IMG/VR virus record: IMGVR_UViG_3300025141_016157
Span: 96,347-160,346 of that record
Source of the DNA: a virus
DNA: 64,000 bases
Reading direction: 5' to 3' (one strand)
Below the pieces are notes generated by a model. That model was not told where the DNA came from. It searched no databases and saw only the letters and a program-made list of their open reading frames with translations. Every line of letters begins with the position of its first letter. The first letter of the stretch is position 1. A program made the position numbers and the translations under genes. Shown here in pieces: positions 35,130 to 56,229 of the stretch.

Positions 35130-35479
35130 GTGAGCGTTTCATTATAAGCAGAGAGCTTGAAGGTATAATTGATAAAGAAAACGTTTTTGGAGACGAAGGT
35201 CTAAATAGCATTTCTATAGAAATTTTATTAAAAACGTTTAAAATAAATAGTAATATAAAGAATATAAAAATTAAAAAAAGATCAGTATCTTTCATGTTTT
35301 CAATAGCTGAAAGTGATATCTACAATCTTATATCACATAATGGGCCGATAGATCTAATATCTGTAGGGAGGCAACAAGATAAATTTGTTCAGTTTGCAGA
35401 TTGTAATATTAGATCGCTAGACATAACAGCAAATGAAGATATGTATATTTGTAAAATTATTATAGATAGAATTGAATAA
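35126..35479 (+). CDS. Hypothetical protein
   Basis: ATGA-coupled ORF. Confidence 0.6.
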   Translation: MSERFIISRELEGIIDKENVFGDEGLNSISIEILLKTFKINSNIKNIKIKKRSVSFMFSIAESDIYNLISHNGPIDLISVGRQQDKFVQFADCNIRSLDITANEDMYICKIIIDRIE

Positions 35480-35482
35480 TTA
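35475..35482 (+). promoter_or_regulatory. AATANTTA motif (putative late promoter)
   Basis: AATAATTA then GAGGAG SD. Confidence 0.5.
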
Positions 35483-35500
35483 ATCACGAGGAGTTATAAT

Positions 35501-35683
35501 ATGAAACGTAAATCTCAAAGCTTTTCTTTTGATAAGTTTGTAACAGATATAGAAAAAAGAGAAGAAGATGCTAGAAAAAAGGTTGAAGATCACCAAAGCC
35601 AGCAAGAATCTCACCCAGGAAGAAAATATAATAAGCTCTACAGAGAACACTGGCAAAATAGAGTAAAGTTTCGGAGAAAATAA
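35501..35683 (+). CDS. Small hypothetical protein
   Basis: Strong SD, coupled to the next gene. Confidence 0.6.
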   Translation: MKRKSQSFSFDKFVTDIEKREEDARKKVEDHQSQQESHPGRKYNKLYREHWQNRVKFRRK

Positions 35684-36402
35684 TGTCATCAATAAGATTA
35701 AAGACAAAGCAAGATATTAAAGATTTTTTTAAAATTCTTGCTGAAGAAAGTGTAAAAAGCGCAAAAAAGCAAGTTCTAGATACTGGTGCCAGCTATTTGA
35801 ACAGTCAATCAAAGCTAGATAAAAAAGCTTATTCAGATATTAGAGAAGAGGAGGAAGAAGAAGTAGTCGAAGACGACTTGGACGTATCCGCAGCGACTCC
35901 TGAAGAACCTGTTGCAGCAGAAGAGGATATTGATACCTCAGTGGCTGTTGAGACTCAAGACATAGAAGATGTATCGCTAGATTCAATTGCAAAGAAAATA
36001 AAAATAATGAGAAGCGGTCTGTCAGTTGATGATTCTTCAGTTCAACAACCATTAAGAACATATTTTGATTTATTGAGCGATGCAGAAAGGAAAGCTTTGT
36101 ATGCATTTCTAAATGCAATAGCTGGAATGATGACTGGCGAGACAACGGCAGAAAACGCTGATGACCCGAGTGATCCTCCTTATAATGTTACAATGAGTTC
36201 AGGTGAAATTGAAACTGAAGATGAAGAAAGTATAGAGACAGAAGATTTTCTAGATGATACATCAGATATAGATGTTGAAGTAGAAGAAGAGGAAGAAGTT
36301 GAATCAGACGGAAGTGTTCCAATTAGAGTTGGAGGCGTTCAGTCAAGGAAATCAATATCTGAAATTAGAAAAAAAGTAATTTCACTTCTTGGAAAGTCAT
36401 GA
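35683..36402 (+). CDS. Acidic hypothetical protein (putative head core/scaffold-like)
   Basis: Glu/Asp-rich tracts; tag-like ..FFKILAEE and ..ISEIRKKVISLL. Confidence 0.65.
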   Translation: MSSIRLKTKQDIKDFFKILAEESVKSAKKQVLDTGASYLNSQSKLDKKAYSDIREEEEEEVVEDDLDVSAATPEEPVAAEEDIDTSVAVETQDIEDVSLDSIAKKIKIMRSGLSVDDSSVQQPLRTYFDLLSDAERKALYAFLNAIAGMMTGETTAENADDPSDPPYNVTMSSGEIETEDEESIETEDFLDDTSDIDVEVEEEEEVESDGSVPIRVGGVQSRKSISEIRKKVISLLGKS

Positions 36403-36610: not shown

Positions 36611-37885
36611 ATGAGAATAAGTCGTCAAAAAATTGAAAGTCTGATTCTATCTGAGATAAGTTTAAAACATGAAATAGACTCAGATGAGTATATAAATGAA
36701 CTTGATGACCTGATACTATCCATCAAGAATCTTAAAAGCTCTTTAAGAAAAGGGCCTAGTAGAAAGTCAAATAGAAAGGAAATGCATCGATTGCAAAGTG
36801 CAATAGAGGCTGTTAGATTTATTAAAAAAAAATCTAAGAGAAAAAGAGAAAAAATGCTTTCTGAGGGTGGAAGGAAAATTTCTCACCTGCCAGAAGATAA
36901 AATAGCAAAGCTATCTCCTGAAGTTGTTACAAGTGCAATCTCAATCTATAGAGACCTTATTGCCCAGTTTAATGATTATCTAGGGCAGAAAGGGCTAGAT
37001 CCAGTTTCACCAGATAGAGCAGTTGGATCAACTGCTTATTATCAGGAAGATCTTGAGGAAGATTCAGATGTTATCTACGGAGATATAGACTATCTTGTTG
37101 TATTTCCACACGTTAAAAATAGTGAAAATTTTAAAAACTTAAGAGATTTACAGTCCAGAACTAAAAGAGAGTACTCTGGTTACTTTCTTGATTTTATAAA
37201 ATCTTCTAGTCCCGACAATGTAGACGTAGAGCTAACAGGTGAGGTATCTCCAACCATGGTTGTCTTGTCACTTCCAGATGATAAAAAAGTCCAAGTTGAT
37301 CTTATAGCAACGTTTCCAAGATATCAGGAATGGATGAATACAAGATGGGTTCCTGAAAGAGGTGTCAAAGGATATATTGGTGGAAATCTATACAAAGCAT
37401 TTGGAGATTCACTTGTTCTAACAGTTGGAGATCAGGGTGTTATTGCAAGAACTATTGATGGAAAAAGAGTTTCGTCAAACAAGCGAGGAAAAGAAGTAAA
37501 CGTTGAGCAAATATCATCAAGCCCACAGACTTTTTTTAAAGATATAGTTTCCTATCTATCCGGAGACAGTTTACAAATTTCAAAAGATCTGGAAGACTTC
37601 CAGGGAATGGATCCTAAAAATATTTCTGTATCTGATATAGCAAAAGGTATAAGACTTGTTTCAGAAAATCTTTATGAAAATGACTCCCTTCCGTCGAGAT
37701 TTAAAAATCCAAGAGAGATGCTAGAGGAGGTTCTTGCTCGTTTTAAGATAGCTATAGACAACTCTCTTTCTAAGAAGTCAAAGCCAAGCTCTCAAGGTGG
37801 TATGTTAAGTGATGAAAAGCTATCAAAGCTAGTAAAAATGAATGCAGAGCAGTATAATAATGTTAAAAGTGAATTTAACTTATAG
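36611..37885 (+). CDS. Pol-beta superfamily nucleotidyltransferase with N-terminal tag
   Basis: MRISRQKIESLILSE; MLSEGG; VGSTAYY...GDIDYLV; VQVDL. Confidence 0.7.
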   Translation: MRISRQKIESLILSEISLKHEIDSDEYINELDDLILSIKNLKSSLRKGPSRKSNRKEMHRLQSAIEAVRFIKKKSKRKREKMLSEGGRKISHLPEDKIAKLSPEVVTSAISIYRDLIAQFNDYLGQKGLDPVSPDRAVGSTAYYQEDLEEDSDVIYGDIDYLVVFPHVKNSENFKNLRDLQSRTKREYSGYFLDFIKSSSPDNVDVELTGEVSPTMVVLSLPDDKKVQVDLIATFPRYQEWMNTRWVPERGVKGYIGGNLYKAFGDSLVLTVGDQGVIARTIDGKRVSSNKRGKEVNVEQISSSPQTFFKDIVSYLSGDSLQISKDLEDFQGMDPKNISVSDIAKGIRLVSENLYENDSLPSRFKNPREMLEEVLARFKIAIDNSLSKKSKPSSQGGMLSDEKLSKLVKMNAEQYNNVKSEFNL

Positions 37886-37896
37886 AACGGCTTCGA

Positions 37897-38550
37897 ATGG
37901 ATTTCTTTATATCTGACTGTCATTTCGGTCACAAAAATATAATACGTTACATGGATAGACCATTTATGTCTGTCGATGATATGAATTTAAAAATGATCAA
38001 TCTTTGGAATGATACAGTTACTAATGATGATAGAGTCTTCTTAGTAGGAGACGCATTTCTTTGTAATGATGAAAAATCATCTGATATACTTAGTCAGCTT
38101 AACGGTTATAAAGTTTTAATTGCTGGCAATCATGACAAATCTGAAAGAACAATGCTTGACATAGGTTTCGATGAGTATCATAGAGAGCTTCAGTACAGCC
38201 TTGGTGATCTCGGAATTGCACTTATGAAACATTACCCACTTCCAGATATAGTGATCAAGGAAAAGGGGTATGACTATCTAATACACGGGCATCTTCATCG
38301 ACCGCCTCACACACAGGGTCTTAAAATTAATGTTGCTGCAGATCTTATTGACTTTATTCCAAAGGACTCTAATTATATAAGAACAATGCTCACGAGATCA
38401 GTTTCAAATGAAGAAAATGAAAAACTAGATTTTAAAATTAAAGACGATAAGATTAGTTTAAATTTAGAAATTAGAATTGAAGATTTTTCTGGAAGTGTAG
38501 ACCATATTTATAGTATATTAAGAAAGCATTGGGCTGAGGAAGAAAAATGA
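37897..38550 (+). CDS. Calcineurin-like metallophosphoesterase
   Basis: SDCHFGH, LVGD, GNHD, KHYP, HGHLH. Confidence 0.85.
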   Translation: MDFFISDCHFGHKNIIRYMDRPFMSVDDMNLKMINLWNDTVTNDDRVFLVGDAFLCNDEKSSDILSQLNGYKVLIAGNHDKSERTMLDIGFDEYHRELQYSLGDLGIALMKHYPLPDIVIKEKGYDYLIHGHLHRPPHTQGLKINVAADLIDFIPKDSNYIRTMLTRSVSNEENEKLDFKIKDDKISLNLEIRIEDFSGSVDHIYSILRKHWAEEEK

Positions 38551-41500
38551 AATTAGGACTTTATGGCGGCGGATTTAAACCGTTTCACACAGGACATTTT
38601 GCAAAATTACTTCTTGCACTAGACGAGAGCGATAGAGTTCTTTCGTTTTTCGGAATAAAGAAGCAGAAGATAAGCAAGAAAACGGGAAAGCCTTTAAAGA
38701 CACATTTTAGAAAATTCGGTGATGGCCCTGATGCAAGAGATTTTAATCAAGAAATGCAAGAGAAAATTGTTGCCATCTACGAGAAAGCTTTACAAGATGC
38801 ATATCCTGGAACACTAGATGTTATACCATCAGCTGATATTACACCGATAACAAATGTCCATAGCATGCTAGATAGGTTTGCATATTCTCAGATGACAGAC
38901 GAAGAGAAGCAAGAAGTGGGAACAGGGGAAAGCATACCAGAACTAACCTATCAAAGCTCTGGTGAAGATGGTGGTTCAATAAAAATAGATTTTAACGATA
39001 TTGATGAAGTTATAGTTGTTGCAGGATCAGAAGAGATTAACGGTCCCGTTTACATGGGAGCAATCAATAGGCGCGCAGAAAGAGGTGATTCTCGCATTGG
39101 AGAAAAGGTGAAGGAGCTTGTTGATTTGGGAAAAATAAAGCTAACTTCTGGTACAGCAGATGAAGGAAGGCTTGTTAATCTTTTAAATCAATATCATGAC
39201 AATGCAACAGAAGATATGGTAACTGTAAGAGGGACAGGTGTCCGTGGCCTAGCTGGAAGTAGAGATGTAGAGAATCTAATTAAATACCTGCCTAATATTC
39301 TTCCTCAGGATCAAAAAGAAGAAATAATAAAAATACTAATAGGTGAAGAACAGCTAGAACCATCAGCGAAGACGGAGTCATTTTTTATGCCAATTATTAC
39401 AGATAGCACAGTCTTAAGAGCTGCAGCACGATTTACAGCAAGAAAAAAAATTAAAGAATCTGTAGCAAGAAAAAAGGGAGAGGATCATATACCCGGGTTG
39501 ACAGAAGATATGTCTCTTACATTTGATAATCTTAGAAGTCTTATTGACGATGTTCTTAGCGGAAGAGTTGAGCATGTTGAGGAAAAGATGGATGGTCAAA
39601 ATTTTACATTCACCGTCCTTGATAATGGTGAAATAAGACTGTTTGGAAAAGGTGTTAGTGCAACTACATTAGAAAAAGGCGGAGCTGGAAGAGATGATAT
39701 TAGAGATCATCAAAGGTGGAATGAAAATGTTAAAGATGCTTTTGGATCTGGATATGATGTTGTAGATAAATACCTTGATGGTAAGGATGCTGATCTCATA
39801 AAAAGATTCTTTCAAAATGGAAAAGTTGTAGTTGAAGGACAGGTTATGACTCCGGCAAATCCTAATACGATACCATATACAGAAAATCATGTACGGTTTA
39901 TTAGACCGTTCACGCCTTATGATACTGAGATAGATCAGGATTCTTACAGAGATCTATTTTCAGATGCAGATGTAGAAATTCAAGATGAAAAAGGCCGTGA
40001 GTGGTCACTAGGTCATGTTCCAAAGCTTAAACAAGTTCAAGTTGATGCAAGCGAGATGCATGGAAAAATACAGGAATTACAAAGTGACATAGACAATCTT
40101 TTGTCAGGTATGGATCCCACCCCTCAGACTGTTGGTGAATATGCATCCCATGTATTAGAAAAATACATTGAAAGAGTTTCACCCCAGCTTGATCTAAGTG
40201 GTCTCAGCAGTGATCAAAAGAGAAGAGCACTTCAAAGACTTGCAACGGGCGATAAAAAAGTAATTGGAAAACCTGAAATGGGAAGTGCCTGGGCTGAGTT
40301 CCAGCAATTTGAAAAAATGAGAACTGCTCATGTATCTGCTGCAATAGCAGATCTAGAAAAAATTGTTCAAAAATTAGGGTCTTACTTTTTCGATACTCTT
40401 GAGTTTGCCTTGGCAACAAATGAGGGTGTGGTTGCAGAGCTAGCAAATGAAGTTGAGAAAATAAAACGTGCAAGAGAATCAGACCAGATAGTAGTTAAAA
40501 ATATTGAAACTGGCGATGTGTCTGATATGATTGATTCTAAATGGGCTACAAAGTTAGATACTTCTCTGGCACGAGTCGAACAGATGGATCTATTTAAAAA
40601 AGCTGTAGAGGGTGTCGTCCTTAGGTTCTCTGGCGATGATGGTAGAGACATTGTCACAAAATTAACAGGAATGTTTACACCGGTTCATAGGCTCGTAGGT
40701 CTTTTCAGATATCCAGATAGAAGCTCAAAAAGCCTTCTTTCAATTCAAATTCCAGATATTGAAGATGATATAGAAAGTGAAGATCTTACAGATGAAGAGG
40801 TTGATGCAATTAACGAAGTCCTTAGAGAGTTTGCTTTTAAACTGGGCTGGGAGAATATATTAATTGAAGGAGGTGCAGCATTTAAAAATATAGATGGTGA
40901 TAGTTTAACTACTAATATTGAATTAAAAAATGTCAATGATACTCTTGAAGATTTCTTCTCTAGCCACTTAAAACCTGCTGGTGTTGATATCTATAGACCT
41001 ATAGGAAGCACAGGTAAGAAATCGAAATCTGGTGATCTTGATATAGTGATTGGATCACCTCAAGGTATTGACAATCGTACTTTTAAAAATAAACTACTTG
41101 GTGCAATTCAATCTTCAATAGTAGACGGAGATGCAAAGCTTGTTGGACAAAATATAGCAGTAATGTATCCGATTAAAGGTTCACAACATGATGATTATGT
41201 TCAGATAGATATTATGATTGATAAATGTCCAGATGATGCATGCTGGCTTATGGCTGGAACAGGAGACGGTGAGATCAAAGGTGTGTATAGAAATTTACTA
41301 CTTAGCCATATTGCAAAAAGGCTAAGCCAGGATTCAGAAAACACACTATTCCCAGATGAAAAGATAGTAATATCAAACCCCGGCGGTCTTCAGTATAAGA
41401 GAATTAAAGACAATATAGACGGTCACCCTCATGATAAAAAGAATAATAAGAAGTGGACTAATATAGGGGAAAAAATTACTTCACCAGAAGAGATATTAAA

Positions 41501-43235
41501 AATATTGGGAATTAACATTTCACCAGAAGAGGCATTGACATTTCGTGGTGTTGCAAATGCAATAAATTCTGATCCGTCTCTTCAAAAGTACTTTGTTTCC
41601 GGTGATGCTAGTGATGGATTTGAAAGACTTTCATTTGAGGAATACATCTCTAGACACTTGACAGATGACAAGACATCACAAGAAGCTAGAAAAGCAGTAG
41701 AATATATTAATAATCTTAGCCTAGATGGAAATATTTCAACCCTGGCACTAGACGAACAAATAATCATACAGCAAATAGTCAGTAAAATTCTATCAGAGGG
41801 TAATTCAAATTCTTCGTCATTCCCATTTTCAAAAATTAGATGGTCTGACAAACTAAAGATGTTTTCATCCGGAAAGTGGAATCTTTGGCAAGAAAGGGTT
41901 TCAGCAACAGCAGACGGTGGAAAAGATCCAGAAGGTGCAGAGAAAGCTGTTGCTGCTATGGAGAACTTAATATACATTAGTCAAAATGGATATTCCGTAG
42001 TGGGCCAAGAAGGCGGAGGAATTCTTATACAGGGAAAGGGGATTAATGCAAAACTTGATGCTGATGAGGCTGTGGAGTATATTATTGGAATCAGAACAAG
42101 CGAGGATGAAGGAGAGCCAGCTCTTCCAAAAGTTAGAATAAGACACGTTGCAGGAACAAAACCATATGATCTAGAGCTTGCAGAGAATGGTGAGGCACTC
42201 GAGGTTAAAAAGATGGGCGGTAAAGATAGGCTTTCAAAGCTTGGATCTGCAACAGGCCGTGTCTTCGATAGACAGGTTAAGATTATAAGGCCCATTAGAG
42301 ATGCTGGACAAATTTCACAAAAGTTTATTGAAACTGGTTCAATTATTGATGAAAACGGCGCAGCTCTGATTAGAAGGATAGATTCTCCCCCTGAGGGATT
42401 TGAAATAGAAAATGTTGCAAAAGCAGTTGAAATGGTAGATTACTTTTTCAATAAGATTAGATTTGGAAACTCTAAAAAAGAACTTCCGGGAATAATGATA
42501 AAAGTAGAGGGTGGCCAGCTAGGCGCAGGAATGGTAAGAAAAATAAAGAGAAATGATCTTTTGAATATTCCAGATATGGGCAATCTCTTTGACATATGTA
42601 AAAAAGTATTAAATAATACACTTGGTGACTACTCTCCTGGAAAAGCAAGAGGGGATGACAGGGAGGGTGACAGTGTAGACGTTAAAGCTCAAACAGGAAA
42701 TACTGAATTTGAAGGCAAGGTATCGCTTGATTATTTTTACGATGAACTTATTTATAAACTATTTGACACAGATGAAGACAGTGTCGAGATAGATCCAGAA
42801 TTAATAGAATCATATGCGCAGTCGATAGAGATGCTCTCTGAAATCTATTCAGCTCTTGTCAAGATTAAAAATAATCAAGGAGAAGATGTATTCGATAATT
42901 TTATTTCAGATCTTCACTACGGGGGATTTTATGGCGTAGATTCGGAAGCCTATTATTCAATACCATGTGACTCAGATCATCTCGAAGTATATGGGACAAC
43001 TCAGGGATTCAGAGCTGTTCTTTCAATGAAGTCAATCCCACCTGAGGGCAGGGGTATATCTAGTGTAAAAATTAAAAAACCTGTTCCAGAAGAAGAGGTA
43101 GACCTTGAAGTCGATTTAAACTCTATAGATCCAAAGAAAGAGAATCCTGATGAGACACAAGATCATGATGTAGAAGAGATCGATATAGAAAAGATAGAGA
43201 ATGAAGAATCAGAAGATACCAGAGAAGATAGTTGA
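38547..43235 (+). CDS. Multidomain protein: HIGH-type nucleotidyltransferase + KxDG ligase-like + pol-beta NTase + PD-(D/E)xK-like domain
   Basis: GGGFKPFHTGH; EEKMDGQN..EGVVL..KLTG; GSTGKKSKSGDLDIV..VQIDI; PYDL..LEVK. Confidence 0.7.
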   Translation: MKLGLYGGGFKPFHTGHFAKLLLALDESDRVLSFFGIKKQKISKKTGKPLKTHFRKFGDGPDARDFNQEMQEKIVAIYEKALQDAYPGTLDVIPSADITPITNVHSMLDRFAYSQMTDEEKQEVGTGESIPELTYQSSGEDGGSIKIDFNDIDEVIVVAGSEEINGPVYMGAINRRAERGDSRIGEKVKELVDLGKIKLTSGTADEGRLVNLLNQYHDNATEDMVTVRGTGVRGLAGSRDVENLIKYLPNILPQDQKEEIIKILIGEEQLEPSAKTESFFMPIITDSTVLRAAARFTARKKIKESVARKKGEDHIPGLTEDMSLTFDNLRSLIDDVLSGRVEHVEEKMDGQNFTFTVLDNGEIRLFGKGVSATTLEKGGAGRDDIRDHQRWNENVKDAFGSGYDVVDKYLDGKDADLIKRFFQNGKVVVEGQVMTPANPNTIPYTENHVRFIRPFTPYDTEIDQDSYRDLFSDADVEIQDEKGREWSLGHVPKLKQVQVDASEMHGKIQELQSDIDNLLSGMDPTPQTVGEYASHVLEKYIERVSPQLDLSGLSSDQKRRALQRLATGDKKVIGKPEMGSAWAEFQQFEKMRTAHVSAAIADLEKIVQKLGSYFFDTLEFALATNEGVVAELANEVEKIKRARESDQIVVKNIETGDVSDMIDSKWATKLDTSLARVEQMDLFKKAVEGVVLRFSGDDGRDIVTKLTGMFTPVHRLVGLFRYPDRSSKSLLSIQIPDIEDDIESEDLTDEEVDAINEVLREFAFKLGWENILIEGGAAFKNIDGDSLTTNIELKNVNDTLEDFFSSHLKPAGVDIYRPIGSTGKKSKSGDLDIVIGSPQGIDNRTFKNKLLGAIQSSIVDGDAKLVGQNIAVMYPIKGSQHDDYVQIDIMIDKCPDDACWLMAGTGDGEIKGVYRNLLLSHIAKRLSQDSENTLFPDEKIVISNPGGLQYKRIKDNIDGHPHDKKNNKKWTNIGEKITSPEEILKILGINISPEEALTFRGVANAINSDPSLQKYFVSGDASDGFERLSFEEYISRHLTDDKTSQEARKAVEYINNLSLDGNISTLALDEQIIIQQIVSKILSEGNSNSSSFPFSKIRWSDKLKMFSSGKWNLWQERVSATADGGKDPEGAEKAVAAMENLIYISQNGYSVVGQEGGGILIQGKGINAKLDADEAVEYIIGIRTSEDEGEPALPKVRIRHVAGTKPYDLELAENGEALEVKKMGGKDRLSKLGSATGRVFDRQVKIIRPIRDAGQISQKFIETGSIIDENGAALIRRIDSPPEGFEIENVAKAVEMVDYFFNKIRFGNSKKELPGIMIKVEGGQLGAGMVRKIKRNDLLNIPDMGNLFDICKKVLNNTLGDYSPGKARGDDREGDSVDVKAQTGNTEFEGKVSLDYFYDELIYKLFDTDEDSVEIDPELIESYAQSIEMLSEIYSALVKIKNNQGEDVFDNFISDLHYGGFYGVDSEAYYSIPCDSDHLEVYGTTQGFRAVLSMKSIPPEGRGISSVKIKKPVPEEEVDLEVDLNSIDPKKENPDETQDHDVEEIDIEKIENEESEDTREDS

Positions 43236-43909: not shown

Positions 43910-44434
43910 ATGAACCTAGACGTTGATAGACTTGCACAACTAGCCGGGTTACCGGTTTCTACAAAGAGAAATCTTAACGAAGCTTCAAATAGAAGCATGC
44001 ATGATGACCCATCTGTTTCTGATGAGAAAGATCATCGCTTTGGAAAGAACCAATTGTCTGAAAGAGGCTCAAAGAAAGGTGACCAGTCTGCTACTCACTC
44101 AGACTATGAAAAAAATGAGGGTGGTGCCAAGAAAGGTGACCAGTCTGCTACTCACTCAGACTTTGAAGAGGCACTCAGTCTTCCCGATGAAAAGATTATG
44201 GGTGAGGAAGATGAAGTCGTTGATATTAATGAAGCAATGCTTGCCAAAGAGATTAAGAGAATGAGAAGGGAAAGACTTCAAGAGAATGAGCTTAGAGGAA
44301 TTATTAGAGCTGAGATTGGATCTATTATAAAAGATCTTAAGAAAGAGTCGTCAAGAGGCAGCTCTCGTTCTAGGTCGCGTGCCAACAAAATGAGACAGGT
44401 TACAATGGGAATTCCAGGTCCTGGATTTAGATAA
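43910..44434 (+). CDS. Low-complexity protein with internal repeat (putative head core protein)
   Basis: RLAQLAGL..LNE; repeat KKGDQSATHSD(Y/F)E; LQENELRGIIRAEI. Confidence 0.7.
   Translation: MNLDVDRLAQLAGLPVSTKRNLNEASNRSMHDDPSVSDEKDHRFGKNQLSERGSKKGDQSATHSDYEKNEGGAKKGDQSATHSDFEEALSLPDEKIMGEEDEVVDINEAMLAKEIKRMRRERLQENELRGIIRAEIGSIIKDLKKESSRGSSRSRSRANKMRQVTMGIPGPGFR
44072..44162 (+). repeat. 34-bp perfect direct repeat x2, 57-bp period, in frame
   Basis: aagaaaggtgaccagtctgctactcactcagact at 44072-44105 and 44129-44162. Confidence 0.9.
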
Positions 44435-44457: not shown

Positions 44458-44489
44458 AAAAAAGCCGGATTTTTTAATCCGGCTTTTTT
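44458..44489. terminator. Rho-independent (bidirectional-type) terminator
   Basis: AAAAAAGCCGGATT-tttt-AATCCGGCTTTTTT perfect stem with T/A tails. Confidence 0.85.
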
Positions 44490-55806: not shown

Positions 55807-56229
55807 ATGAAAAATCATGTAGTTACCATTAGAGATATTCCCTTGTCTGTTGAGGTTGCAGATACTGAGGAACTAAGGCAGAAAGGTCTTATGAATAGGA
55901 TGAACCTGGCTCATGATTCAGGCATGCTTTTTATATTTGAAGAACCTAGAGAATTAGGGTTCTGGATGAAAAATACAAGAATACCTCTTTCTATTGCATT
56001 TCTATCATCGACAGGAGACATTTTGAACATAGAGGACATGAATCCGTACGATTCTACTACACAAAAATCTATTTCAGATGCCAGATGTGCAATAGAGGTA
56101 AACCAGGGGTGGTTTAAGAGAAATGGTATAAACCCAGGAGATACAGTAAGCGGGATTCCCATAGAGGATACAGTTACAATAACAGAAGATAAACTTAGAG
56201 AAATAGTACGGAATGTACTTTTAGGATAA
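55807..56229 (+). CDS. DUF192 family protein with C-terminal tag
   Basis: VEVADT..R.KGLM.R, GMLFIF, FWMKNTRIPLSIAF, AIEVNQG; ends VTITEDKLREIVRNVLLG. Confidence 0.85.
   Translation: MKNHVVTIRDIPLSVEVADTEELRQKGLMNRMNLAHDSGMLFIFEEPRELGFWMKNTRIPLSIAFLSSTGDILNIEDMNPYDSTTQKSISDARCAIEVNQGWFKRNGINPGDTVSGIPIEDTVTITEDKLREIVRNVLLG

What the first reader, a model, noticed from the sequence alone, without database searches (positions are those of the whole stretch)
38547..43235. 1562-aa putative polyprotein: three unrelated nucleotidyl-transfer folds plus a nuclease, separated by tag/cleavage motifs
Seen: (i) HIGH-type NTase (GGGFKPFHTGH, ~38570). (ii) Ligase-type KxDG domain (KMDG 39585-39596, later EGVVL and K). 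(iii) Pol-beta NTase (GS..GDLD 41004-41042, VQID). (iv) PD-(D/E)xK-like PYD..EVK (42162-42209). Each junction has an amphipathic helix ending (I/L)-x-E: KKIKE/S ~39456, NILIE/GG ~40866, QIVSKILSE/G ~41796. These match the ends of the N-terminal tags on other genes. Established: the T4 prohead protease cuts after (I/L)-x-E. Inference: a head-packaged polyprotein is cut into separate enzymes and injected, for RNA end repair, NAD/nucleotide-signal manipulation or AMPylation against host defence.
Basis: partly seen in the sequence, partly recalled or inferred. Interest (0 to 1): 0.85.

Follow-up and report, generated by a model that had tools for sequence, protein, structure and literature searches.

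The report
Four-enzyme phage polyprotein with cleavage-site linkers
An uncultured marine T4-like phage fuses an NMNAT-like transferase, an RNA-ligase-like enzyme, a mini polymerase-X-like enzyme and a probable nuclease into one 1562-residue protein, and the flexible joints carry the motif that T4-type head proteases cut, so it may be a repair kit cut up in the capsid and injected, but no cleavage or packaging has been shown.

Summary
The ORF (38547-43235, 1562 aa) is real and intact, and about 20 full-length marine metagenomic homologs conserve it.

**Domains**
- Three of the four calls hold at fold level:
  - aa 1-266: NMNAT/PPAT-type HIGH transferase.
  - aa 311-736: Rnl1/Trl1-like RNA ligase, with invariant K347.
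  - aa 776-1059: family-X polymerase-like palm plus thumb.
- The PD-(D/E)xK call rests only on an invariant D...ExK motif and its position in the model.

**Junctions**
- All three are low-confidence helices that end in a conserved [ILV]-x-E followed by S, A or G.
- They hold 3 of the protein's 5 such sites (18 of 20,000 shuffles do as well).

**Support for cutting and packaging**
- The genome encodes a T4-type prohead protease and a gp23-type capsid protein.
- At least seven other proteins here start with a helical leader that ends the same way.
- In other phages the same modules are separate adjacent genes, split exactly at these junctions and carrying such helices at their ends.

**Limits**
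- Cutting and packaging remain inference, at about even odds.
- The protein's own N-terminus has no leader.
- The substrate is unknown; nucleic-acid end repair is my best guess.

This scan reached similar readings for relatives in two other genomes.

The parts
38547..43235 (+). Whole ORF P0001, 1562 aa
   Evidence: about 20 full-length homologs at 32-73% identity
38547..39344 (+). Module D1 (aa 1-266): HIGH-motif adenylyltransferase, NMNAT/PPAT fold. Motifs PFHTGH (aa 12-17) and RGTxVR (aa 228-233).
39348..39476 (+). Junction 1 (aa 268-310): disordered stretch, isolated helix 286-306, then K-I-K-E304|S
   Evidence: pLDDT 32-58. [ILV]-x-E in 19 of 20 homologs, followed by A or S in 14. Aligns with the N-terminal leader of homologs that lack D1.
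39477..40754 (+). Module D2 (aa 311-736): ATP-dependent RNA-ligase-like nucleotidyltransferase. K347-M-D-G (motif I), E688-G-V-V-L (motif IV), K705 (motif V), with a large helical insert at about aa 500-645.
40755..40871 (+). Junction 2 (aa 737-775): disordered stretch, helix 749-766, then I-L-I-E774|G-G
   Evidence: E774 is invariant in 21 of 21, followed by G in 19. pLDDT is below 50 at aa 769-775. Stand-alone D3+D4 proteins start exactly after this Glu.
40872..41723 (+). Module D3 (aa 776-1059): family-X polymerase-like palm plus thumb. G820-S, G829-D-L-D832, D888.
41724..41816 (+). Junction 3 (aa 1060-1090): isolated helix 1065-1085 ending I-L-S-E1084|G, followed by an S/N-rich coil
   Evidence: pLDDT 42-50. 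An HMM of this junction finds the phage's own tags. The stand-alone D4 protein P0046 has this helix as its N-terminal leader.
41817..43031 (+). Module D4 (aa 1091-1495): probable PD-(D/E)xK nuclease core (E1139, D1208, E1219-V-K1221), plus a helical part and a C-terminal beta part with invariant TTQGFRA
   Evidence: Invariant residues. Helix then hairpin placement in the model. No hit in Pfam, PHROGs, NCBIfam or PDB sequences. Only family members in 1.84 billion representatives. Weak language-model leads to PD-(D/E)xK families.
43032..43232 (+). Acidic low-complexity C-terminal tail (aa 1496-1562)
37897..38550 (+). Upstream calcineurin-type phosphoesterase, overlapping the P0001 start. This position is conserved in the L007 and L010 relatives; L008 has an unannotated 186-aa gene there.
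   Evidence: phrog_547, E 2.5e-39. Pfam Metallophos, weak. TIGR04123 PdeM, weak, E 4e-5. Synteny.
36611..37885 (+). Upstream 424-aa protein: N-terminal tag, basic leader ending M-L-S-E|G-G, then a distant paralog of D3 (GS...GDIDY...VQVD)
   Evidence: hhalign against the D3 profile, E 1.8e-4, probability 48%

Best explanation
P0001 is a modular multi-enzyme of an uncultured marine T4-like phage.

**Modules**
- D1: an NMNAT-type adenylyltransferase.
- D2: an Rnl1/Trl1-like ATP-dependent ligase.
- D3: a minimal Pol X-like polymerase.
- D4: a probable PD-(D/E)xK nuclease.
- Each keeps its catalytic residues.
- A phosphoesterase and a second D3-like transferase lie immediately upstream (gaps of 11 nt or less between the three genes).

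**Proposed function (inferred).** Together these form a healing, filling and sealing kit for broken nucleic-acid ends, DNA or RNA.

**Proposed processing (inferred).** The modules are joined by flexible amphipathic helices that each end in [ILV]-x-E followed by a small residue. This is the motif cut by T4-type prohead proteases. It is also the end of the leader peptide on many other proteins of this phage. I propose three steps:
1. The helices load the protein into the prohead core.
2. The S77 protease cuts after E304, E774 and E1084, releasing four enzymes.
3. The enzymes are ejected with the DNA.

**Status**
- Shown: the architecture, the conservation, the junction sites and the split-gene relatives.
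- Inferred: loading, cutting, ejection and the substrate.

**My odds**
- Domain composition: about 0.9.
- Nucleic-acid end repair: about 0.55.
- Cut and packaged: about 0.45.
For: **Folds and motifs**
- Catalytic residues are invariant across the family.

**Junctions**
- They are low-pLDDT isolated helices.
- Three of the five strict [IL]-x-E-[ASG] sites lie in the three linkers (P = 0.003; 18 of 20,000 shuffles).
- Three of the nine family-conserved [ILVMF]-x-E triplets are these sites.

**Same genome**
- Peptidase_S77 protease, 90 bits, above the cut-off, and a Gp23 capsid, E 2.6e-76.
- T4 gp21 cuts after L/I-x-E, and a short leader loads diverse cargo (PMC9026906).
- At least 7 ORFs in the window share the leader MKITxxx[IL]RxIIxEE...L-x-E (24-33 bits against a shuffled maximum of 4).
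- Small proteins next to the protease gene carry the same leader.

**Fission at the junctions**
- L010 encodes phosphoesterase | D1 | D2 | D3+D4 as adjacent genes. D2 starts with a leader ending ILSE|A. D3+D4 starts at the residue after E774.
- L005: D1 | tag-X-tag-D2.
- P0042: leader MKKIIAE|GG, then D3.
- P0046: leader ...VLLE|QGG, then D4.
- E774 is dispensable for the D3 fold, because P0026 and P0027 begin after it. Even so, L-x-E precedes GG wherever anything lies upstream.

**Unrelated cargo in one relative**
- In P0014 a possible M15-peptidase-like module sits between two tag helices. This is a lead only.

**Repair context**
- The phosphoesterase neighbour is conserved.
Against: **Against loading and cutting**
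- No data show presence in virions or cleavage, and no cultured relative exists.
- P0001 starts directly with the HIGH motif and has no N-terminal leader, unlike every characterised T4 capsid-targeting sequence.
- The tag HMM does not hit P0001's own junctions. HMMs of junctions 1 and 2 find no tags above the null.
- Tag-like helices also end stand-alone D1 and D2 proteins with no Glu site. The helix could therefore be a docking or linker element rather than a propeptide.

**Against the functional reading**
- D4's fold is unverified.
- The role of an NMNAT-like domain in end repair is unexplained.
- The gene lies among replication and metabolic genes, not head genes.
Confidence: 0.42

Rival explanations
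1. The enzymology is the same, but the protein works uncut inside the infected cell as a single multi-domain repair enzyme, as bacterial LigD or fungal Trl1 do. The junction helices are flexible tethers, and the conserved Glu residues are helix-capping or structural features.
For: - There is no N-terminal leader.
- The gene sits among replication and metabolic genes.
- Fusing repair activities in one chain is common; LigD and Trl1 are the models (established knowledge; Trl1 is among the fold matches).
- HMMs of junctions 1 and 2 do not find the tags.
Against: - In every relative a Glu followed by a small residue sits at the end of otherwise variable, low-confidence linkers.
- E774 is not needed by D3.
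- The same motif ends the leaders of at least 7 unrelated proteins in a phage that has an S77 protease.
- One homolog may have acquired a cell-wall peptidase-like module between tag helices.
Confidence: 0.33
2. The helices are protein-protein docking elements, like the docking domains of modular synthases. A C-terminal helix of one module pairs with an N-terminal helix of the next, or with a common hub. Split and fused forms therefore build the same assembly, and no protease or capsid is involved.
For: - Stand-alone D1 and D2 end in LRx[FY]xRGxxxG and the next gene starts with a similar helix.
- Tags occur at N-terminal, internal and C-terminal positions.
Against: - It does not explain the strict Glu-plus-small-residue ending.
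- It does not explain why unrelated enzymes share the leader. Hydrolase and zincin identities come from other readers' notes and were not checked here.
- Head-module proteins next to the protease carry the tag too.
Confidence: 0.12
3. This is a counter-defence kit acting on small molecules rather than on nucleic-acid ends. D1 would remake NAD+ against NAD-depleting defences. D3 would act as a signalling or tailing nucleotidyltransferase.
For: - D1's best matches are NadM/NadR-type NMNATs.
Against: - No Nampt or Nudix partner was found in the 160 kb held, though the record is about 58% complete.
- The ligase, nuclease and phosphoesterase context fits end repair.
Confidence: 0.1

Closest known systems
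T4 internal proteins IPI-III and Alt (capsid-targeting leader, gp21 processing, ejection)
   Same: - The phage has a T4-type S77 protease and a gp23-type capsid.
- Short helical leaders ending L/I-x-E sit on diverse cargo.
- Alt is an enzyme cut at both ends and injected (PMC9026906).
   Different: - Here the candidate sites are internal, between four enzyme modules of one 175-kDa chain.
- There is no N-terminal leader.
- The leader is about 20 aa, not 10, and also occurs at C-termini.
- Nothing is shown experimentally.
Head proteins of giant phages (phiKZ, SPN3US, 201phi2-1) processed by gp21-like proteases
   Same: Many head-internal proteins are cut after Glu at short motifs, some internally, with both parts retained (PMC9026906, PMC5694885).
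   Different: - Their cargo is not a string of recognisable repair enzymes.
- They belong to a different phage lineage.
Bacterial LigD (NHEJ polymerase + phosphoesterase + ligase in one chain)
   Same: - Polymerase, end-cleaning and ligase activities are combined.
- Domain order varies and split forms occur.
   Different: - LigD uses an archaeo-eukaryotic primase-type polymerase, a DNA ligase with an OB domain, and its own phosphoesterase fold.
- Here the parts are Pol X-like, RNA-ligase-like, a separate calcineurin-type phosphoesterase, an NMNAT-like module and a putative nuclease.
T4 Rnl1 with Pnkp, and fungal Trl1 (tRNA healing and sealing)
   Same: - It shows the healing-plus-sealing logic, with a neighbouring phosphoesterase.
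   Different: - No polynucleotide kinase was found.
- D2 has a helical insert of about 150 aa between motifs I and IV.
- Pfam RNA_ligase scores below its cut-off.
ASFV Pol X with its ligase (minimal viral base-excision repair), and the D. radiodurans Pol X / Rnl5 'ribo-patch' idea
   Same: - It is paired with a ligase.
- Nick-sealing RNA ligases have been linked to DNA damage repair (PMC5397189 abstract).
   Different: - Identity is only 15%.
- There is no Pfam match.
- There is no 8-kDa lyase domain.
- Template dependence is untested.
NadM/NadR-type NMN adenylyltransferases (2qjo, 2qjt, 6gye)
   Same: - GxFxPFHxGH and a [SR]GTx[IV]R second motif are present.
   Different: - D1 is about 100 aa longer, through insertions.
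- It has no Nudix or kinase partner domain.
- All curated models score far below their cut-offs.
- The substrate is unknown.

Membership tests
HIGH-motif nucleotidyltransferases (cytidylyltransferase-like; NMNAT/PPAT) | (H/T)xGH motif at the end of the first strand | tested here: met
   PFHTGH at aa 12-17. G16 and H17 are invariant; H14 is T in some relatives.
HIGH-motif nucleotidyltransferases (cytidylyltransferase-like; NMNAT/PPAT) | Second ISxTxxR-type motif | tested here: met
   V-R228-G-T230-G-V-R233. G229, T230 and R233 are invariant.
HIGH-motif nucleotidyltransferases (cytidylyltransferase-like; NMNAT/PPAT) | Rossmann-like fold matching solved members | tested here: met
   [not shown]
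HIGH-motif nucleotidyltransferases (cytidylyltransferase-like; NMNAT/PPAT) | Curated sequence model above its cut-off, or NMN specificity | tested here: not met
   - No Pfam hit.
- NCBIfam NMNAT models score 12-16 bits against cut-offs of 127-418.
- Substrate specificity cannot be tested here.
ATP-dependent RNA ligases (covalent nucleotidyltransferase superfamily) | Motif I KxDG with the adenylylated Lys | tested here: met
   K347-M-D349-G350, invariant within the domain alignment.
ATP-dependent RNA ligases (covalent nucleotidyltransferase superfamily) | Motifs IV (EGhhh) and V (Lys) | tested here: met
   E688-G-V-V-L and K705 are invariant.
ATP-dependent RNA ligases (covalent nucleotidyltransferase superfamily) | Pfam RNA_ligase (PF09414) above the gathering score | tested here: inconclusive
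   24.1 bits against 27, E 4.6e-5. Ten of 21 relatives match at E of 0.01 or better.
ATP-dependent RNA ligases (covalent nucleotidyltransferase superfamily) | Fold like solved Rnl enzymes | tested here: met
   - Foldseek 2c5u: probability 0.96.
Family X DNA polymerases | GS ... GDxD ... D catalytic signature | tested here: met
   G820-S821, G829-D830-L-D832 and D888 are all invariant.
Family X DNA polymerases | Palm plus thumb fold, not palm alone | tested here: met
   - TUTases, PAPs and CD-NTases align over only about 100 residues.
Family X DNA polymerases | 8-kDa lyase / HhH fingers domains; sequence-model membership | tested here: not met
   - No Pfam, PHROG or NCBIfam hit.
- Matches start at pol beta residue ~90-140, so no 8-kDa domain is covered, as in ASFV Pol X.
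- Profile against PDB sequences: Pol lambda, E 0.55 only.
PD-(D/E)xK nucleases | D ... (D/E)xK on a beta hairpin after a helix bearing an acidic residue | tested here: met
   - D1208, E1219 and K1221 are invariant in the domain alignments.
- E1139 is invariant on helix 1130-1146.
- The strands are at 1209-1211 and 1217-1223 of the model.
PD-(D/E)xK nucleases | Fold or profile match to a known member | tested here: inconclusive
   - No hit in Pfam, PHROGs, NCBIfam or PDB sequences.
- Fold searches were filled by the Pol X domain of the same model.
- There are only weak language-model leads: Mrr_cat, PDDEXK_14 and Tox-REase-7, score 0.76.
T4-type capsid-targeted, gp21-processed head cargo | Prohead protease of the gp21 (S77) family in the same phage | tested here: met
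   PF03420, 90 bits, above the cut-off; Gp23 capsid, E 2.6e-76.
T4-type capsid-targeted, gp21-processed head cargo | Accessible L/I-x-E sites at the points of processing | tested here: met
   E304, E774 and E1084 lie in low-pLDDT linkers and are conserved.
T4-type capsid-targeted, gp21-processed head cargo | N-terminal targeting leader | tested here: not met
   P0001 begins with the HIGH motif at residue 7. Only internal helices are present; junction 3 is tag-like.
T4-type capsid-targeted, gp21-processed head cargo | Presence in virions and observed cleavage | not testable with these tools
   No cultured relative was found, and no proteomic data are at hand.

The most novel reading that the evidence does not exclude
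A clade of marine T4-like phages loads a complete nucleic-acid break-repair kit into the capsid as one polyprotein. The kit holds an adenylyltransferase, a ligase, a Pol X-like polymerase and a nuclease. A portable helix works as a capsid-loading signal whether it is N-terminal, internal or C-terminal. The prohead protease cuts after it, so four separate enzymes are injected with the genome.
Probability: 0.35. Interest if true: 0.8.

Novelty: new variant of a known kind. Interest (0 to 1): 0.6.

Why it matters
If the cutting and packaging are real, they would extend T4's capsid-targeting principle in two ways:
- from small N-terminally tagged proteins to an internally tagged polyprotein of enzymes;
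- to a phage that carries ready-made repair or end-processing enzymes into the cell.

It would also give a natural, position-independent loading signal for putting large enzymes into T4-like capsids.

Even if the protein is never cut, the family links an NMNAT-like transferase, an RNA-ligase-like enzyme and a minimal Pol X-like polymerase. That link recurs as fusions and as conserved neighbours in several phage groups, and no described pathway explains it. All four activities are directly assayable.

Tried and rejected
- **D4 by sequence.** These searches gave nothing usable:
  - Pfam on all 20 members at E up to 10.
  - PHROGs and NCBIfam.
  - A profile search of PDB sequences.
  - A profile search of 1.84 billion representatives, which returned only family members.
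- **D4 by fold.** Foldseek pdb, VIA wide, BFVD and the Atlas were all run on the D3+D4 model. The Pol X-like domain filled every list.
- **PPR hits.** The PPR-protein hits to the D3 profile have no single passing stretch. I treat them as a repeat artefact.
- **Complex test.** Complex prediction with the putative scaffold (483 aa) and the junction-3 peptide (aa 1056-1092) gave no verdict: score 0.00, controls not run. This counts neither for nor against binding.
- **Cultured relatives.**
  - blastn of the head-protease region against cultured phages found no match.
  - tblastn of P0001 against cultured phages found three weak hits to the ligase part only. One lies in Microcystis phage Mel-JY01, in a gene annotated 'cytidylyltransferase like protein'.
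- **NAD-salvage partners.** Nampt (PF04095) and Nudix (PF00293) were not found in the 160 kb held. The record is about 58% complete, so this is weak.
- **Promoters.** The sigma-70 promoter scan of the region is at chance level: 43 found against 41.6 expected.
Full report
**What is there**

The window holds one intact ORF, 38547-43235 (+), encoding 1562 aa (P0001). Its start overlaps the stop of the upstream gene by 4 nt. All relatives conserve the N-terminal sequence, so the start is right.

The window is the last 64 kb of a 160-kb virus record, about 58% complete. That record encodes a Peptidase_S77 (T4 gp21-type) prohead protease above Pfam's cut-off and a Gp23-family major capsid protein at E 2.6e-76. 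The phage is therefore an uncultured T4-like phage. No cultured phage carries the whole protein.

About 20 full-length homologs exist at 32-73% identity, all metagenomic, some from Tara samples, on contigs up to 280 kb. Gene order around the gene is conserved where checked: a tagged ~420-aa protein, a phosphoesterase, then the P0001-like gene in L007 (and, with an unannotated 186-aa gene in the middle position, L008). GroEL and a sigma factor follow in L006 and L008.

**The four modules**

I folded aa 1-774 and aa 752-1510 with family alignments. The mean pLDDT was 84 and 81.

- **D1 (aa 1-266).**
  - Sequence: a family profile finds the NadM NMNAT 2qjo at E 1.5e-4.
  - Motifs: PFHTGH and RGTxVR, conserved.
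  - Limit: curated NMNAT models score far below their cut-offs, so this is a fold-level assignment, not membership of a named enzyme family.
- **D2 (aa 311-736).**
  - Sequence: Pfam RNA_ligase scores just under threshold here but matches 10 of 21 members.
  - Motifs: K347-x-D-G, E688-G-V-V and K705, all invariant.
  - Unusual feature: a helical insert of about 150 aa lies between motifs I and IV.
- **D3 (aa 776-1059).**
  - Motifs: GS, GDxD and D888, all invariant.
- **D4 (aa 1091-1495).**
  - Fold: not identified by any sequence or fold search. The fold searches were filled by D3.
  - Basis of the PD-(D/E)xK call: invariant D1208 and E1219-x-K1221 on a beta hairpin after a helix with invariant E1139, plus weak language-model leads.
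  - Verdict: I rate it probable, not shown.

**The junctions**

In the models the three junctions are isolated helices of low confidence, flanked by disorder: aa 268-310, 737-775 and 1060-1090. Each ends in [IL]-x-E followed by S or G.

- P0001 has only five [IL]-x-E-[ASG] sites, and three are these. The binomial P is 0.003, and 18 of 20,000 shuffles put a site in each linker.
- Across the family alignment only nine [ILVMF]-x-E triplets are conserved in at least 80% of sequences. E304, E774 and E1084 are three of them. These three are followed mostly by A/S, G and S/G/D respectively, and sit in otherwise variable sequence.
- T4 gp21 cuts after L/I-x-E. A short N-terminal leader loads diverse proteins into the T4 prohead core. 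Alt is trimmed at both ends (PMC9026906).

**The tags**

At least seven ORFs of the window begin with the same ~20-aa helix, MKITxxx[IL]RxIIxEE...L-x-E. They score 24-33 bits with a tag HMM, against a shuffled maximum of 4 bits. Two small proteins next to the protease gene carry weaker copies, one ending LKE|G.

The tag HMM does not hit P0001's own junctions. In relatives, however, its best hits fall at junction 1 or junction 3. An HMM of junction 3 finds this phage's tags: a C-terminal copy at 13.3 bits against a null maximum of 8.0, then the N-terminal tags of three ORFs. HMMs of junctions 1 and 2 find nothing above the null.

So 'the junctions match the tags' holds fully for junction 3. For junction 1 it holds by homology to leaders in relatives. 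For junction 2 it holds only in the L-x-E-G-G ending.

**Split relatives**

This is the strongest new evidence.

- **L010.** This contig carries phosphoesterase | D1 (283 aa) | D2 (470 aa) | D3+D4 (768 aa) as adjacent genes.
  - D1 ends in a tag-like helix.
  - D2 starts with a leader ending ILSE|A and ends in another helix.
  - D3+D4 starts at the residue aligned just after E774.
- **L005.** D1 is a separate gene directly upstream of tag-X-tag-D2. The same contig has several N-terminal tags and one internal tag in an 832-aa protein.
- **P0042.** A stand-alone D3 whose leader is MKKIIAE|GG.
- **P0046.** A stand-alone D4 whose leader ends VLLE|QGG.
- **The upstream gene in this window (36611-37885).** It has an N-terminal tag, a basic leader ending MLSE|GG, and then a distant paralog of D3 (hhalign E 1.8e-4).

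E774 is absent where D3 starts a protein, and present wherever something precedes D3. It is therefore not needed for the fold, which fits a P1 residue.

In P0014 an extra module sits between two tag helices. Language-model leads point to M15/VanY peptidases at a score of 0.83, which is a lead only. If that is real, it favours 'string of cargo modules' over 'one coordinated enzyme'.

**Function**

- All four active sites are conserved.
- The phosphoesterase neighbour is a common phage family (phrog_547, E 2.5e-39) with a weak match to the ligase-associated PdeM family.
- D1-D2, D1-D3 and D3-ligase-like associations recur in other phages.
- My reading is a healing, filling and sealing kit for broken DNA or RNA ends. 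The role of the NMNAT-like module is unexplained.
- An NAD-salvage reading lacks its usual partners in the 160 kb held.

**Verdict**

The architecture, the site conservation, the protease and the split-gene evidence make processing plausible, at about 0.45. Against it, there are no virion or cleavage data, P0001 has no N-terminal leader, and tag-like helices also sit at C-termini without a Glu site. A docking or linker role therefore remains open.

I found no paper describing this family.

Follow-up agents of this scan reached similar conclusions on relatives in two other genomes (e1-5410214, e1-5410219). My analysis was done independently of these and agrees with them.

Noticed in passing
window 36611-37885 (+): This 424-aa protein has the N-terminal tag and a basic leader that ends MLSE|GG. 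A distant paralog of the Pol X-like module follows (GS...GDIDY...VQVD). hhalign against the D3 profile gives E 1.8e-4 at 48% probability.
   Followed up: partly
window 37897-38550 (+): A calcineurin-type phosphoesterase (phrog_547, E 2.5e-39) overlaps the P0001 start. It has a weak match to the ligase-associated PdeM family. It is missing in L006, the one relative checked whose P0001 homolog also lacks D1.
   Followed up: partly
window 55807-56229 (+), aa 125-139 of 140: A copy of the tag (ITEDKLREIVRNVLLG) sits at the C-terminus of a small protein. It scores above the shuffled null with both the tag HMM and the junction-3 HMM.
   Followed up: partly
L010:168-5408: A fully split version of the locus: phosphoesterase, D1, D2 and D3+D4 as four adjacent genes. 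D1 and D2 both end in the C-terminal motif LRx[FY]xRGxxxG. This motif loosely resembles the RWxxLAGIK ending that another reader noted on the putative scaffold and on one cargo protein.
   Followed up: partly
L005:542-3040 (-): An 832-aa protein contains an internal MKLTESHLRRIIREE tag, Met included, about three quarters of the way along. It looks like a second fused cargo protein.
   Followed up: no
P0014 aa 1120-1385 (homolog, alignment A1 columns ~1400-1660): An extra module of about 290 aa lies between D3 and D4, flanked by two tag helices. Language-model leads point to M15/VanY-type cell-wall peptidases (score 0.83). There is no Pfam or PDB sequence hit.
   Followed up: partly
L003:8683-9795 (+): A DUF6267 protein directly downstream of a stand-alone D3 gene contains a K-W-D-G motif. 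It may be another ligase-type nucleotidyltransferase.
   Followed up: no
window 35477-35684 (+): A small ORF (ATG at 35502, about 60 aa) lies in the apparent gap; it fell below my 60-aa ORF threshold. It is preceded at about -25 by ATAATTA, the candidate late-promoter heptamer that also lies 20-35 nt upstream of many structural genes in this genome. It could head the operon that contains P0001.
   Followed up: partly
window 44458-44489 (+): A strong intrinsic-terminator-like hairpin (14 pairs plus a T run) lies after the gene at 43910-44434. It probably marks the end of the operon.
   Followed up: no
genome C1:62705-64156 (outside the window): The putative scaffold (483 aa, upstream of the capsid gene) has five [IL]-x-E-[ASG] sites, four within its first 104 residues, as expected for a protein degraded by the prohead protease.
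   Followed up: no
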